A DNA stretch of 28,362 nucleotides from Planctomycetota bacterium (GTDB lineage: Bacteria > Planctomycetota > UBA8108 > UBA1146): the NCBI GenBank assembly GCA_036338595.1, contig JAYZBV010000069.1, forward strand, positions 1-28,362, read 5' to 3'. A program made the position numbers. Below are positions 12,001 through 18,000 of the stretch, one piece after another (the first letter of the stretch is position 1; the number at the start of each line of letters is the position of its first letter).

Positions 12001-15000
12001 TACAGAGGACCAGAGACCTGGCACCTCGCTAGCGCGCCGGAGGTGGGCTGGTATCGGACTGAACCTGCCTGCGCAGGACCTCTCTGAGTGGCACTGCGGT
12101 ATGGCTTCTACGAGATCTTGCGACCTTCCCTGGAGTACCCTCTACCACCACCTGCCCGCCGGCATCTCCACCTTCCGGCCCCATGTCAATGACATGATCT
12201 GCACAGGCGATCAGGTCCAGATCATGCTCGATGACGATCACGGTATCTCCGCGATCCACCAGTTTGTGAAGCATCCGGGTGAGCAGGCGAACGTCTGAAA
12301 AATGTAATCCGGTGGTCGGTTCATCGAGGATGTAGATGCGCCGTCCTCTGGCTCTTCGACCCAGTTCAGAAGCGAGTTTTACCCGTTGAGCCTCGCCGCC
12401 TGACAAGGTGGTCGCCGATTGCCCCAGAGATAGGTACCCCAGCCCCACCTCATCGAGAGCCCGGAGCATCGTAGCGATGGCGGGTATATCTTCGAACAGT
12501 TGAAGCGCCCCCCGAACATCCATCTCGAGCACATCGGAGATGCTGCAGCCCTTCCAGCGCGCCTCCAGAGTCTCCTTTTCATAGCGTCGACCACGACATA
12601 CCTCGCAGCGTACCCATACGTCGCTGAGGAAGTGCATCTCGATGAGGATTCCACCTTTTCCATCGCACGCCTCACAACGCCCACCCGCAACATTGAAGGA
12701 GAACCGACCCGGTCCCCAACCTCGCACACGGGCCAGGTGTGTTCGTGCGAAGAGGCTCCTGATGGGAGTCATGACTCCGGTGTAGGTGGCGGCGTTGGAT
12801 GACGGAGTACGACCGAGTGGTTGCTGATCAATCACACCCAGGCCATCAAATGCGTCATCCCCCTCGATCCCTTCATGGGCAGCGCTGGCTGGTCTGGCGC
12901 CGGCTAGCCGGGTCGCCAGTTCTCTCGCCAGGATGTCCATCACGAGGGTCGATTTTCCTGAACCGCTGACTCCGGTGATGCAGGTCAAGACACCCGTTGG
13001 TATCGACACATCGATATTTTTGAGGTTGTGTGCCGTCGCCCCGATGATGCGAATCTCGCCTCCGTCTCCACACCTGGGTACTCCGATCTCCGAGACCTTC
13101 TCGCGACCCGACAGGTACGCCCCCGTCACGGAACAGGGATTATTGATGATCTCCTCTGGCGTGCCCTCGGCGACCACCTCCCCACCGAGGACTCCAGCTC
13201 CGGGTCCCAGATCGATGACATGATCACAACTTCGAATGGTTCGATCGTCATGCTCCACGACGACCAGCGTGTTGCCCTGATCCCGCAACTCGGCCAGGGA
13301 TCCCAGTAATCGATCCACATCCCGTGCATGAAGTCCGATGGTCGGCTCATCGAGGACATAGAGCACGCCCATCAACTGGTTCCCGATCTGCGTGGCGAGG
13401 CGAATTCGCTGCGCTTCTCCACCGGAAAGCGTCTCCGTGGGTCGGTCCAGTGCGATGTATCCAAGCCCCACCTTCTGCAGAAAGGAGAGACGGCTGACGA
13501 CTTCCAGCCGAACTTGATCCGCAACCTCTCGGCGATACCCGGTCAACTCCAGCGCCTCAAAGAACTCGATGGCCTGATCCACCGTACGACCACAGAGCTG
13601 TGAGATGTTTTCGCCGTCAATTCGGACGGCCAGCAGTTCTGGTTTCAGACGCCCACCGCTACAGCCGGGACAGGAGAGCACGGTCAGGTGCTCTTCGATC
13701 GCATGGCGCCAGCGTGGCGAGTTGGCGCGCTGATGCCAGATGGAGACTCGCTCGACCAGTCCCTCCCAGCTGGAGCCTTTCACCCGTCTCAGTCGCCCAC
13801 TTCCACGCCGTGTCCTGAAGGTGACTGGATAGGAGAGGTCACCCGTACCGTCGAGAATCACCTTCCATCCATCTTCTCCGAGTTCATCGACGGCGCTGGA
13901 AGGATCAAATCCGTGGGCCATCAGTGCCGCATCGATGACTTTTCGGACCCGGCCGCTCTTTCTGCCGATCCAGGATCCAAGCCCGTGATCCATCGCTCCT
14001 GAAAAAATTGGTCGCTCAGGATTCGTGATCAACAATCGCGGATCGACCTGCTTCAGCACACCCAGCCCCGAGCAGGCGTTACAGGCACCGGAGTGGTGAT
14101 TGAAGGAGAACAGCCTCGGTGACAGCTCCTCTGCGAGCATCATGTGACCATCGGGGCACGACGGTCTGCGAGTGAAGCGAACCAGTTCCTTTCCATCCGC
14201 GTCGGCGACGATCAATCGATCTCCTCCCCGGCGGTACGCTTCCTCGACGCTCTCGGAGACACGCACACGACCCGAACGCGCCGGGCGGAGTCGATCCACA
14301 ACGACCTCTACCGTCGCTTCATCCGGAAAGGGGAGATCGAGATCCAGTTCGTCGAGCCGACTCACCACGCCATCGATGCGTACCCTCGCATAGCCCTCCC
14401 CTGCCACTTCTCCAGGCGATGGATGGGGAGCATCGAGTGGAGCGAGCAGCAATGTCGGATGCTCCGCTCGATCCTCCAGAATTCTGCCGCTGGCTGCAGC
14501 CGGGGTATGCGCCTCGAGTTTCAAATCACAGTGAATGCAACTCGCTTCCCCGGCCCTGGAAAAGAGAATCCGCAGGTAATCATAGATCTCGGTCGAGGTG
14601 GCCACCGTCGAGCGAGGACTCGATCCCCTGTTCTTCTGATCGATGGCGATCGCCGGCGCGATCCCCTCGACACGGTCCACCTCTGCTCGATCCACCCGGC
14701 CGAGGAAGCGCCTCGCATAGGTCGAAAGGCTCTCGATGTATCTGCGCTGTCCTTCAGCAAAGAGAATATCAAAGGCCAGCGTACTCTTTCCCGAACCGCT
14801 GGGTCCCGTGATGACGGTGAATTCCCCGGCAGGGATTTCAACAGATACATCTTTCAGGTTGTTCTGCCTCGCTCCTTCGATCAGGAACCTGTCTGCGGGC
14901 TCTCCCGAGCCGGAACCCCTCTTCTTTCCGGAGCGGCGAGCAGTTCGACGCTTCCCACTCATTTCTCCTGCGAGTGCGATCCCGGTCGCACTGCCGAGCC

Positions 15001-18000
15001 TGGCCAGTTGCTCGGGTGTGCCACAACTGAGAACGCGCCCACCCTGGGCGCCTCCTCCGGGGCCAAGATCGATGACATGGTCCGCCTGCTTCACCACATC
15101 GAGACAGTGCTCGATGATCACGACCGTATTGCCACTGTCGACGAGTGCATGAAGGCAACCGAGCAGGTTATCGATATCTGCAAAGTGCAAGCCGGTTGTC
15201 GGTTCATCGAGCAGATATAGCGTTCTTCCGGTGCTCTTCTTTCGCAACTCCGTCGCCAGTTTGACCCTTTGTGCTTCGCCCCCTGAAAGGGTGGTACTGG
15301 GTTGCCCCAGCGACACGTAGCCAAGCCCTACTTGTAGCAAGGTTCGAAGAGTCCGGTCGATCTGAGGCACGTCTTCGAAGAGCGAAGAGGCCTCCTCGAT
15401 CGATAGCGCGAGAATCTCGGAAATATCGTGACCACGCCAACGCACTGACCTCGTCTCCGCATTGAAGCGGGTGCCATTGCACTCCTCGCACACCACCTCG
15501 ATGTTGGCCATGAATTGCATGCCGATGGTGATGACCCCGGCTCCTTCACAGGCCTCGCATCGACCACCCTTGACATTGAATGAGAATCGCCCTTTTTTCC
15601 ATCCTCGAGCACGAGCCTCAGCGGTGCGCGAGAACAGATCGCGAATGTCATCGAACACCTTGGTGTAGGTTCCGGGATTGGAGCGCGGGGTTCGCCCGAT
15701 GGGGTTCTGATCGATACGGATCATCTTGTCGATCTGTTCCAGTCCATCGACACCGTCGTGATCTCCGGGTGGCTCCGTCACCAGCTCGAGGTACTCAGCG
15801 ACTGCCGGCTGTAGCACTCCCTGGATGAGTGTACTTTTCCCTGATCCGCTAGCTCCGGTGATGACCACCAGAGATTGCAACGGAATCTCGACATCGACAT
15901 CCTTTAGGTTGTGCATCCTCGCGCCACGAATCCGCACGAAGTCTGTTGATTTCCTGCGACTCGCGGGGATTTCGATCTTCTTGATCCCGGCGAGATACTG
16001 ACCAGTCAGTGATCGCGATACCTTTTGAACTGCAGTCACCGACCCCTCGGCGACCAGTTCTCCCCCTGCTGTACCCGCACCCGGTCCGATGTCTATGATG
16101 TGATCAGCACTCTCGATGGTTTCACGATCATGCTCCACCACCAGTACCGAGTTGCCCAGATCCCTCAAGCCCCTGAGGATCTCCAGCATCGCACTATTAT
16201 CCGCAGGATGGAGTCCGATCGAAGGTTCGTCGAGCACATACAGAACGCCACGTAGTCCACTCCCCAGTTGGCTCGCCAGCCGGATGCGTTGCGCTTCTCC
16301 ACCCGCGAGCGTATCTGCGGATCTATCGAGGGCGAGATAACCGAGGCCCACTCTGGAGAGAAACTCGAGCCGCGCTCGGATCTCCGGAAACAGTGACTGA
16401 CCGATACGGAGTTCCCTCTCATCCAGTTCCAGGGAGTTGAAGAACTCGTGGGCATCGTCGACTGTCATGGCGCAGAGTTGATCGATTCCATGTCCGCGAT
16501 AGCGAACGGCACGGGGCATCTCTTGCAGCCGTGTGCCGCCACAGGCCTTGCATTCCGTGCGAGGCATGTGCCGTTCCAGTTCTCGCCCCCCGTGCAGGTC
16601 ATAGGCGACCTCGACGAGCGGAATCAGACCTGGCCAGTCACTCTTTCCCCCCACCGATTCGGCCCCCTCGAGGAGCAACTTGCGTGCCCGGGGGGTTAAC
16701 TTCTTCCATGGCCTATCGAGAGAGATTCGTTCGAGAGTTGCGGCTTTCTCCAGTACCGACCAGGCCACGGAAAGGCCCCGGATCGATTTGCCCTGCCGCC
16801 TCAGGAACAGAGCACCTTCCCGGATCGAGAGAGACGCATCCTTGACCATCGTGTGTTCCGACGGAGACCTCCTTCTGCCGAGACCGTCGCATCTCTGGCA
16901 GGCCCCCTGGGCACTGTTGAAGGAGAAGAGCCTGGGCTCCAGTTCTGGCAAGGATGTGGAGCATGTCGGGCAACCAAATCTGCTGGAGGAGAGATGGGCA
17001 ACTTCTCCATCCACGATGGTCACCAGTCCGTCAGAGATGGTGAGCGCTTTCTCGACTGCTTCGGCTAGCCTGCCACGCTTTCCGTCCACCAGCCGTAACT
17101 TATCGAGTACGACCTCGATCGTGTGGCGCTCATATCGAGCCAACGCGATGGGATCGGAAAGGCGCATCAATTCTCCATCGATGCGAACACGGACAAATCC
17201 CTGCTCACGGAGTTGTTCCAGCTCCTTTCGATACTCGCCCTTTCGCTCAAGAACGATGGGAGCGCACACCAGCACTTCCTGCCCCTCCAGTTGCAACCAG
17301 CTGTGCTGGACGATTTGCTCGCGGCTGCGACCCTCGATGGCATCTCCACAACCGGGACAGTGAGGGATCCCGAGCCGAGCAAACAGGAGTCGTAGATGAT
17401 CGAGGATTTCCGTGATGGTACCGACAGTGGATCTCGGATTTCGCGAGATGGTTTTCTGATCGATCGAAATTGTCGGGCTGAGCCCCTCGACCGCCTCGAC
17501 CCGAGGCCGATCGAGTCGACCCAGATACTGGCGAGCATAGGAACTGAGGCTCTCGACGAAGCGCCTCTGCCCCTCACGACAGATGATGCCGTGTGCGAGA
17601 GTTGATTTGCCGGAGCCGCTGATGCCGGTGACGACCACCAGCCGCTCCCTGGGGATCGTCACATCGAGGTTTCGAAGGTTGTTTTCGCTCGCCCCACGAA
17701 CCAGCAGCGGGCGACCTGACGAGGCACTCACCGGCTCCCCCCGACCCTGTCAGCGGGCGGAACTGCGGGTCGAACCAGGTCCAGCAGCACCGGATGGAGT
17801 TCTGGCGTTGCCGCAACGATGCTGCCGCCCAGCAACCAGTCGTCGCCGCCGACGCCATCGGTCACGACGCCACCCGCTTCTCGGATCAGCAATGCCCCCG
17901 CAGCGACGTCATGTGGCTGGAGGTAGAACTCCCAGAATCCCTGAAATATGCCCGCTGCGGTGAACGCCAGATCGAGGCAAGCACTACCACCTCGACGAAT

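What a model noticed while it worked through the whole genome (the two positions that open the first line are those of the whole stretch)
12029..17731. Single-chain UvrA-UvrA tandem fusion as the only UvrA of the lineage
The only UvrA gene of this genome (g01253) encodes 1900 aa: two complete UvrA units (44% identical, four Walker A sites) joined head to tail by a short basic linker, and the same ~1850-2060-aa open frame is found through order UBA1146. I read it as a covalent, asymmetric UvrA 'dimer': Pfam sees a full UvrB-interaction domain only in the first unit and a full insertion/DNA-binding domain only in the second, so the two halves have split the jobs that the two identical subunits of normal UvrA2 share. 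New: a natural single-chain UvrA that fixes subunit order and could settle how many UvrB a UvrA dimer loads and which subunit senses damage.
Evidence so far: pfam.tsv: UvrA_inter 2-105/109 at aa 136-239 but 40-108/109 at 1109-1178; UvrA_DNA-bind 4-64/110 at 294-358 but 1-109/110 at 1230-1346; best Swiss-Prot hit covers only aa 9-921 (52% to T. thermophilus UvrA). Walker A at 36, 626, 976, 1587; halves align 9-911 vs 949-1872 at 44%. No other gene with UvrA domains in pfam.tsv. Six-frame search with the second unit in 34 genomes of the order: 33 have it; in 25 genomes (families f1 and f2) both units lie in one open frame of 1847-2058 aa without stops; in the other 8 the frame is shorter, mostly at contig ends. 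Paper search UvrA+tandem+fused+Planctomycetes: 3 papers, none on this by title/abstract.
(Added by a program. Inside this text positions count along the whole contig: contig position 1 is position 1 of the stretch shown here. "Call 12" and the like, gene names such as g00115 and contig names such as C1 are that model's own, and its searches are not shown. The text may have been shortened before it was handed on; [...] marks where a part breaks off. The agent that wrote the report below was given it as the finding of a first reader that could run no searches.)

Follow-up and report, generated by a model that had tools for sequence, protein, structure and literature searches.

The report
Double-length UvrA repair gene, known type
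The gene really encodes two complete copies of the DNA-damage sensor UvrA in one chain, but this double form is old, widespread and already published for planctomycetes, so only the small built-in differences between its two halves are of interest.

Summary
ORF 12029-17731 (-) encodes 1900 aa: two full class I UvrA units, 44% identical, four Walker A sites, joined by a ~30-aa basic linker. It is the only UvrA in this 88%-complete genome. Contigs from four other studies bridge the junction.

It is not new and not special to the order. [quoted passage not shown] NCBIfam holds an 1809-position double-UvrA model. At least 8000 protein clusters of 1045-3325 aa match. Fused forms also occur in Fibrobacterota and in SAR324-, Latescibacterota- and Gemmatimonadota-labelled records. 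Each unit groups with its counterparts in other lineages.

Strict division of labour is only partly supported. Both units keep all ATPase motifs, the DNA-binding arginines and a complete UvrB-binding domain with the R216/E222 equivalents. Real asymmetries exist. Unit 1 lacks the insertion-domain beta-hairpin, matching an engineered M. tuberculosis deletion that weakens binding to damaged DNA. Unit 2 lacks a motif in its UvrB-binding domain, as in 121 of 121 fused proteins. This scan had already noted double UvrA in at least 9 other genomes.

The parts
12029..17731 (-). uvrA, double-length: 1900 aa plus stop, GTG start
   Evidence: Its GTG overlaps the TGA stop of the upstream inositol-monophosphatase-family ORF (GTGA).
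14981..17731 (-). Unit 1 (aa 1-917), a complete class I UvrA
   Evidence: TIGR00630 positions 2-924, 1191.8 bits against a cut-off of 729.8. AF2 mean pLDDT 87.2. Foldseek to 3zqj_A TM 0.87.
14888..14980 (-). Linker (aa 918-948), basic and Gly/Ser-rich
   Evidence: In the family the linker is 24-90 aa (median 30), rich in R, A, K and G, and its sequence is not conserved.
12032..14887 (-). Unit 2 (aa 949-1900), a complete class I UvrA, the more derived half
   Evidence: TIGR00630 positions 3-924, 1087 bits. AF2 mean pLDDT 86.5. Foldseek to 3uwx_A TM 0.80 over 955 columns.
16973..17347 (-). UvrB-binding domain of unit 1 (aa 129-253), canonical, with RKGEY, R221 and E227
   Evidence: Pfam PF17760 positions 2-105/109, 102 bits.
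16553..16888 (-). Insertion domain of unit 1 (aa 282-393), lacking the beta-hairpin
   Evidence: PF17755 matches only positions 4-64/110. The alignment to M. tuberculosis UvrA stops at chain residue 381 and resumes at 425. The hairpin segment is 2-7 aa. The AF2 model has no strands there.
14159..14527 (-). UvrB-binding domain of unit 2 (aa 1069-1191): KG motif deleted, R1157 and E1163 kept
   Evidence: PF17760 positions 40-108/109, 45 bits. pLDDT about 90. Weak pass with UvrB domain 2.
13673..14071 (-). Insertion domain of unit 2 (aa 1221-1353), complete
   Evidence: PF17755 positions 1-109/110. Aligns end to end with the M. tuberculosis and G. stearothermophilus insertion domains.
13769..13834 (-). 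Arg-rich beta-hairpin of the unit 2 insertion domain (aa 1300-1321)
   Evidence: Strands at residues 353-361 and 367-374 of the unit 2 model. Aligns with the hairpin at native residues 363-377 of M. tuberculosis UvrA.
17603..17626 (-). Walker A 1 (aa 36-43)
15833..15856 (-). Walker A 2 (aa 626-633)
14783..14806 (-). Walker A 3 (aa 976-983)
12950..12973 (-). Walker A 4 (aa 1587-1594)

Best explanation
This is the lineage's working UvrA and an ordinary member of an old, widespread family of double-length UvrA proteins. Most likely (inferred) the two units pack against each other within one chain, as the two subunits of the usual UvrA dimer do. The chain would then bind DNA, use four ATPase sites and load UvrB through both of its UvrB-binding domains for normal nucleotide excision repair. 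Because the halves are covalently tied, they have drifted apart. Unit 1 keeps every canonical motif but has lost the DNA-melting beta-hairpin of its insertion domain. Unit 2 keeps that hairpin but has a derived UvrB-binding domain and a degenerate GRTPRSN motif in its second ATPase module. The anatomy, conservation and distribution are shown. The intramolecular pairing, the UvrB stoichiometry and the functional effect of the differences are inferred.
For: Both units score over the UvrA equivalog cut-off and model as full UvrA folds.

In 121 fused proteins aligned with E. coli UvrA, both units keep K37 and K646 (121 of 121 each), R216 (121 of 121 each), E or D at 222 (116 and 120 of 121), the Zn2 and Zn3 cysteines (121 of 121) and R712 (121 of 121); R724 and R730 are kept in 106-120 of 121. 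A UvrB-binding domain of 111-131 aa is present in both units of 121 of 121.

The genome and the order have one UvrB each. Unit 2's domain with UvrB domain 2 scored ipSAE 0.56 against a best control of 0.01, which the tool rates as weak support. That mark was reached by 116 of 157 solved complexes and 2 of 215 mismatched pairs, but at 0.60 or under by only 18 of the 157 and by both mismatches. The runs agree in at least 97% of contacts and the partner's pLDDT is at least 84. Like complexes are solved, so the pass may be from memory.

The open frame is kept through a linker of variable length in all 121 proteins and in 25 of 34 genomes of the order. Unit 1 and unit 2 form parallel starred clades. 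A planctomycete fused UvrA was detected by LC-MS/MS (PMC8567305, section 25).

Asymmetries are documented.
Against: No model of the whole chain could be made, because the folding tools stop at 1200 and 1000 residues. Intramolecular pairing is therefore untested, as is whether about 30 residues can span from the C-terminus of one unit to the N-terminus of the other. No RNA or protein data exist for this organism. The complex score is weak, and like complexes are solved (3FPN recalled; 3UWX), so it may reflect memory. Unit 2 lacks a motif that 67 of 69 single UvrAs keep in the UvrB-binding domain.
Confidence: 0.72

Rival explanations
1. Strict division of labour: unit 1 alone recruits UvrB and unit 2 alone senses damage, so the chain loads a single UvrB at a fixed side.
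For: Unit 2's UvrB-binding domain lacks the (K/R)G-x-aromatic motif (0 of 121 unit 2 sequences, 121 of 121 unit 1, 67 of 69 single UvrAs) and the fourth Zn1 ligand (G at that place in 24 of 121 unit 2 sequences, this protein among them). Unit 1's insertion domain lacks the hairpin, whose deletion in M. tuberculosis UvrA speeds dissociation from damaged DNA (PMC11985968 passages). That paper also reports that the first UvrB binds the protomer whose insertion domain is the 'support' one, which is the combination that unit 1 shows.
Against: The equivalents of R216 and E222 are as well or better kept in unit 2. No fused protein of 121 has lost either UvrB-binding domain, although 13 have lost a whole insertion domain. 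Unit 2's domain gave a weak pass with UvrB. Current models need two UvrB, one per strand, to find the damaged strand (PMC12796330 passages).
Confidence: 0.15
2. The chains pair with each other, either as a dimer of pseudo-dimers or with like units pairing between chains, giving an eight-ATPase machine instead of a single-chain equivalent of UvrA2.
For: Nothing here excludes it. Both units keep the core domains that form the normal dimer interface.
Against: No evidence for it either. The short, always-present linker and the complementary losses (one hairpin per chain is the commonest state) fit units that work as a pair within one chain.
Confidence: 0.1
3. Artefact: two adjacent uvrA genes read as one through an assembly or sequencing error, or a chimeric contig.
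For: The genome is a bin with 7.2% contamination.
Against: Contigs from four runs of four studies bridge the junction without indels. The same frame occurs in 25 of 34 genomes of the order and in 120 other long proteins.
Confidence: 0.01

Closest known systems
Planctomycete double-length UvrA (Tuwongella immobilis and relatives; Front Microbiol 2021, PMC8567305, Fig. 13)
   Same: Two uvrA units fused in one gene, twice the length of E. coli UvrA, in the same phylum. The protein was detected by mass spectrometry.
   Different: That paper gives one sentence and a figure, with no comparison of the halves. In my tree the window's protein belongs to a different fused clade (about 1800-2000 aa, with Fibrobacterota and SAR324-like members) from the Pirellulales/Planctomycetaceae type of 2200-2480 aa, which carries a C-terminal extension. 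Where T. immobilis falls was not tested.
Canonical class I UvrA homodimer (E. coli; G. stearothermophilus 2R6F/3UWX; M. tuberculosis 3ZQJ/9GA2-5; C. thermocellum 9GX*)
   Same: Each unit has the full domain set and 45-51% identity to solved UvrAs, with TM 0.76-0.87.
   Different: The two 'subunits' are one chain and are not identical (44% identity). One insertion-domain hairpin and one UvrB-domain motif are missing.
NCBIfam NF001885 (PRK00635), an 1809-position 'excinuclease ABC subunit A' equivalog
   Same: A curated model of a double-length UvrA, which shows that the architecture is recognised by annotators.
   Different: The window's protein scores 1196 bits against a cut-off of 3054, so it is not that equivalog. 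That the model was built on chlamydial UvrA is my recollection, not a tool result.
M. tuberculosis UvrA 'recognition-ID / support-ID' asymmetry and its delta-beta-hairpin mutant (Nat Commun 2025, PMC11985968)
   Same: Unit 1's natural gap lies where the engineered Q361-E381 deletion lies. Unit 2 keeps an Arg-rich hairpin.
   Different: In M. tuberculosis the asymmetry is induced by the lesion in a symmetric homodimer. Here it would be built into the sequence. Neither unit has a Tyr at the place aligned with Y323, although the alignment is uncertain there.

Membership tests
Class I UvrA (TIGR00630 / NF001503), each unit | Score over the curated equivalog cut-off | tested here: met
   Unit 1 scores 1191.8 bits and unit 2 scores 1087 bits against a cut-off of 729.8.
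Class I UvrA, each unit | Two ABC ATPase modules with Walker A, Walker B and signature motifs | tested here: met
   Four of each motif were found. The first signature reads LAGGE.
Class I UvrA, each unit | UvrB-binding domain between the halves of zinc module 1 (its absence defines class II) | tested here: met
   PF17760 scores over its cut-off in both units (102 and 45 bits). The domains are 114 and 112 aa long. The R216 and E222 equivalents are present. Unit 2 lacks the (K/R)G motif.
Class I UvrA, each unit | Insertion (DNA-binding) domain between the halves of zinc module 2 | tested here: met
   PF17755 scores over its cut-off in both units (31 and 37 bits). Unit 1's domain lacks the beta-hairpin.
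Class I UvrA, each unit | Three zinc modules with four ligands each | tested here: inconclusive
   Zn2 and Zn3 are complete in both units. Zn1 is complete in unit 1. In unit 2 Zn1 has C1065, C1068 and C1192, then G where the fourth Cys stands; a His follows one residue on.
Double-length (tandem) UvrA | Two full units in one open frame, with each unit orthologous to its counterpart in other fused proteins | tested here: met
NF001885 (PRK00635) equivalog | Score over the cut-off of 3054 bits | tested here: not met
   1196.4 bits.
Class II UvrA (UvrA2, Ecm16, DrrC type) | No UvrB-binding domain | tested here: not met
   Both units have the domain.
Functional NER damage sensor | Binds damaged DNA, loads UvrB and hydrolyses ATP | not testable with these tools
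   Only motif conservation and a weak complex score are available.

The most novel reading that the evidence does not exclude
Covalent UvrA dimers have hard-wired the roles that a symmetric UvrA2 takes on only after meeting a lesion. In 73-91 of 121 fused proteins only one of the two insertion domains has a full-length hairpin segment. Either unit can be the reduced one, and the state needs at least 14 changes on the family tree. In contrast, 64 of 69 single UvrAs keep the hairpin. Unit 2 has also lost the (K/R)G motif of the UvrB-binding domain in all 121 fused proteins and has loosened GRTPRSN. In this lineage unit 2 would be the fixed 'recognition' protomer and unit 1 the 'support' protomer that takes the first UvrB. 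That would make the protein a natural reagent for ordering the steps of lesion hand-off.
Probability: 0.3. Interest if true: 0.6.

Novelty: new member of a known kind. Interest (0 to 1): 0.3.

Why it matters
As a gene this is routine: it is the lineage's UvrA, in a form that is already in print and in annotation models. Its possible value is as a tool. UvrA's two subunits are identical, so experiments cannot easily change one without the other. Open questions therefore remain hard to address: whether one or two UvrB are loaded, which subunit's insertion domain reads the lesion, and what each of the four ATPase sites does (PMC7835731 and PMC11985968 passages). A natural single chain lets each position be mutated alone. 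The family also offers ready-made variants: one hairpin missing from either unit, or one whole insertion domain missing. The observation that no fused protein in the sample has lost a UvrB-binding domain, while many have lost one hairpin or one whole insertion domain, is itself a comparative hint. It suggests that two UvrB sites are needed but one damage-probing hairpin is enough.

Tried and rejected
- **Whole-protein search.** I repeated it on residues 780-1130.
- **Stand-alone unit 2.** A search among proteins under 1045 aa with unit 2's residues 1040-1400 found only fragments, several labelled partial, at 40-74% identity. After those came ordinary single UvrAs at 40% identity or less. There is no sign of a free-standing unit 2 gene.
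- **Literature.** Five further searches found nothing on tandem UvrA function by title or abstract: UvrA + class IV + duplication (4 papers); UvrA + Chlamydia + tandem (25 papers, 15 listed); UvrA + Chlamydia + duplicated (4); UvrA + fused + duplication + dimer (10); UvrA + UvrB + R216 (0). The paper that defined the UvrA-UvrB interface (Pakotiprapha 2009) is not held. I therefore know only R216 and E222, as quoted in PMC3025350, and could not tell whether the (K/R)G motif touches UvrB.
- **Protein atlas.** It listed single and double UvrA clusters but had no structure model for this protein.
- **Expression.** No RNA holder was listed for the gene.
- **Gene context.** The neighbours are housekeeping genes (inositol monophosphatase family, D-Ala-D-Ala ligase, polyprenyl synthetase, MlaD-like). 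There is no repair operon and no XPB gene of the kind earlier notes of this scan describe elsewhere.
- **Whole-chain structure.** A fold of the full 1900-aa chain, or of the two units as a complex, was not possible within the size limits.
- **Chlamydial UvrA.** I could not confirm with any tool that it is double-length; that remains my recollection.

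
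Full report
**The observation**

The window holds one open frame, 12029..17731 on the minus strand, with a GTG start, encoding 1900 aa. It contains four Walker A motifs (aa 36, 626, 976, 1587), four Walker B motifs and four ABC signatures. Its halves align to each other over aa 5-911 and 942-1872 at 44.4% identity.

NCBIfam's UvrA equivalogs match twice. In the genome search each unit scores over the cut-off: 1191.8 and 1087 bits against 729.8. The two units are the only places in this genome above that cut-off. The other 11 of 13 matches score 25-37 bits. The genome is 88.3% complete with 7.2% contamination.

In the order, 34 of 34 genomes have UvrA, and 25 hold both units in one open frame of 1847-2058 aa. 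Contigs from four runs of four different studies cross the junction (14888-14980) without indels. The fusion is therefore not an assembly error.

**Is it new?**

No. A full-text search for UvrA and Planctomycetes found 20 papers. [quoted passage not shown] It also reports that all four UvrABCD subunits of Tuwongella immobilis were identified by LC-MS/MS.

NCBIfam holds an 1809-position UvrA equivalog, NF001885. The window's protein does not reach its cut-off (1196 against 3054 bits). A search restricted to proteins of 1045-3325 aa returned 8000 hits among 8000 scored candidates, which is the cap. Their source labels include Planctomycetota, Lignipirellula cremea, Pirellulaceae, SAR324, Latescibacterota, Gemmatimonadetes and a deltaproteobacterium, and all are called simply UvrA. 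All 121 sequences in hand have at least four Walker A motifs.

Among 101 Planctomycetota genomes, 43 show one UvrA unit and 58 show two or more. The listed frames run from 929 to 2483 aa, and some genomes hold both a single and a fused gene. In a sample of 80 loci from named genomes, 5 encode double-length proteins. Two of these are Fibrobacterota and one is a Pseudomonadota bin. Earlier notes of this scan describe double UvrA in at least 9 other genomes and reach the same verdict.

**Age of the fusion**

I built a FastTree of 118 rows: 24 unit 1, 24 unit 2 and 70 single UvrAs, one of which (L043) is a very long branch. The window's unit 1 sits in a starred clade of 12 unit 1 sequences, and its unit 2 sits in a starred clade of 12 unit 2 sequences from the same proteins. 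These include the two Fibrobacterota proteins and a SAR324-like one. The two clades together form a starred group. The duplication and fusion therefore predate the divergence of these proteins. A second group of fused proteins (Pirellulales and Planctomycetaceae type) forms its own unit 1 and unit 2 clades. Deep branches of this quick tree should not be trusted.

**What each half has kept**

I aligned 121 fused proteins, cut into units, with E. coli UvrA (taken from NC_000913.3) and 69 single UvrAs. Both units keep the following:
- the Walker A lysines K37 and K646 (121 of 121 each);
- the UvrB-interface residue R216 (121 of 121 each) and E or D at 222 (116 and 120 of 121);
- the Zn2 and Zn3 cysteines (121 of 121);
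- R712 (121 of 121), with R724 and R730 in 106-120 of 121.

R216 and E222 are named as the UvrB interaction surface in PMC3025350, which cites Pakotiprapha 2009 (passages).

Domain lengths in this protein are 114 and 112 aa for the UvrB-binding domain (E. coli 118) and 98 and 119 aa for the insertion domain (E. coli 111). Across the family a UvrB-binding domain is present in both units of 121 of 121 proteins. A whole insertion domain is missing from unit 2 in 12 and from unit 1 in 1.

AlphaFold2 models of the two units have mean pLDDT 87.2 and 86.5. Both match full-length solved UvrAs: TM 0.87 to 3zqj_A for unit 1, and 0.80-0.82 to 3uwx_A and 2r6f_A for unit 2.

The genome has one UvrB, as do 33 of 34 genomes of the order. 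Unit 2's UvrB-binding domain (aa 1060-1205), folded with UvrB domain 2, scored ipSAE 0.56 against a best control of 0.01. The tool rates this as weak support. That mark was reached by 116 of 157 solved complexes and 2 of 215 mismatches, but at 0.60 or under by only 18 of the 157 and by both mismatches. The runs agree in at least 97% of contacts and the partner's pLDDT is at least 84. Like complexes are solved, so the pass may be from memory.

**What differs between the halves**

1. *Insertion-domain hairpin.* Unit 1's alignment to M. tuberculosis UvrA stops at chain residue 381 and resumes at 425. Unit 2 aligns straight through. Chain numbering is native + 21, judged from Cys753. The gap therefore covers native residues of about 361-403, which include the beta-hairpin 363-377. 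PMC11985968 (passages) reports that deleting Q361-E381 makes M. tuberculosis UvrA leave damaged DNA faster, and that the two insertion domains of the homodimer divide their labour into a 'recognition-ID' and a 'support-ID'. Unit 2 has an Arg-rich hairpin, SYPVTFRTRRGSGRLRRVKGSS, modelled as two strands.

   In the family, a full-length hairpin segment (15 residues or more) is found in both units in 28 or 46 of 121, in only one unit in 91 or 73, and in neither in 2. The two figures come from two alignments. Among single UvrAs, 64 of 69 have it. On a tree built without these domains the combined state needs at least 14 changes. The sample is not phylogenetically balanced.

2. *UvrB-binding domain motif.* A (K/R)G-x-aromatic motif near E. 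coli residues 158-162 is present in 67 of 69 single UvrAs and in 121 of 121 unit 1 sequences. It is present in 0 of 121 unit 2 sequences, by an alignment-free count. In this clade it is deleted. Its role is unknown to me.

3. *GRTPRSN motif.* This motif of the second ATPase module is invariant in 69 of 69 single UvrAs and 121 of 121 unit 1 sequences, but variable in unit 2. Here it reads GRTPSSN.

4. *Zn1 ligand.* Unit 2's fourth Zn1 ligand is Gly in this clade (24 of 121).

Overall, unit 2 keeps fewer of the canonically conserved positions in every region except the insertion domain and signature domain I, where the two units tie. In the UvrB-binding domain the counts are 9 against 16 of 23.

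**Reading**

The gene is the lineage's UvrA, in a known double-length form. The data fit a single chain that does the job of a UvrA dimer and still offers two UvrB docking domains. Current models need two UvrB, one per strand (PMC12796330 passages). The halves are not equivalent, and the pattern in this clade is an intact UvrB domain with a hairpin-less insertion domain in unit 1, and the reverse in unit 2. That pattern resembles the asymmetry seen by cryo-EM in a symmetric enzyme. It is suggestive but untested.

Whether the two units pair within one chain, whether about 30 linker residues suffice for that, and how many UvrB bind could not be tested here.

**Verdict**

This is a real, conserved and correctly described gene, but a new member of a known kind. 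Its interest is modest. It rests on the comparative hint that covalent UvrA dimers tolerate loss of one damage-probing hairpin but not of a UvrB site, and on its use as a natural single-chain reagent.

Noticed in passing
L120:141-5114 (-) = G003:C125; also G002:C92:29586-34073: Two genomes of the same order carry a second tandem UvrA (1657 aa in G003). In the G003 protein both units start at UvrA model position ~253 and have no UvrA_inter domain, while UvrA_DNA-bind matches twice. This is a fused pair of class II-like (UvrB-domain-less) UvrAs. The G002 copy was judged only from its match coordinates.
   Followed up: partly
P0027, P0032, P0040, P0061, P0069, P0070, P0074, P0086, P0088, P0090, P0091, P0111; L011, L019: A subgroup of fused UvrAs of about 1775-1826 aa (with SAR324- and deltaproteobacterium-labelled records and two Fibrobacterota) has lost the whole insertion domain of unit 2. 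That is 12 of the 121 proteins, plus the two Fibrobacterota loci. This is the opposite polarity to the window's clade.
   Followed up: partly
P0015 (1833 aa, close relative of the window's protein): Its unit 1 insertion domain is reduced to 28 aa, while unit 2 keeps 118 aa. This continues the trend seen in the window's protein.
   Followed up: no
P0026, P0078, P0079 (Lignipirellula cremea, 2317 aa), P0098, P0119 and others: Pirellulales-type fused UvrAs carry about 330-400 extra residues after unit 2. For P0079 no Pfam family matched there at E<=1e-5.
   Followed up: partly
window 17728-17731 and 12029-12032: The uvrA GTG start overlaps the TGA stop of the upstream inositol-monophosphatase-family ORF (GTGA), which suggests coupled translation. 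At the other end the uvrA stop and the stop of the convergent MlaD-like ORF overlap in CTAG.
   Followed up: partly
Planctomycetota genomes G123, G088, G066, G074, G125, G035, G127, G059: Some genomes of the phylum hold both a single-length and a fused UvrA, or two different fused UvrAs. Fused and single forms therefore coexist as paralogues in places.
   Followed up: no
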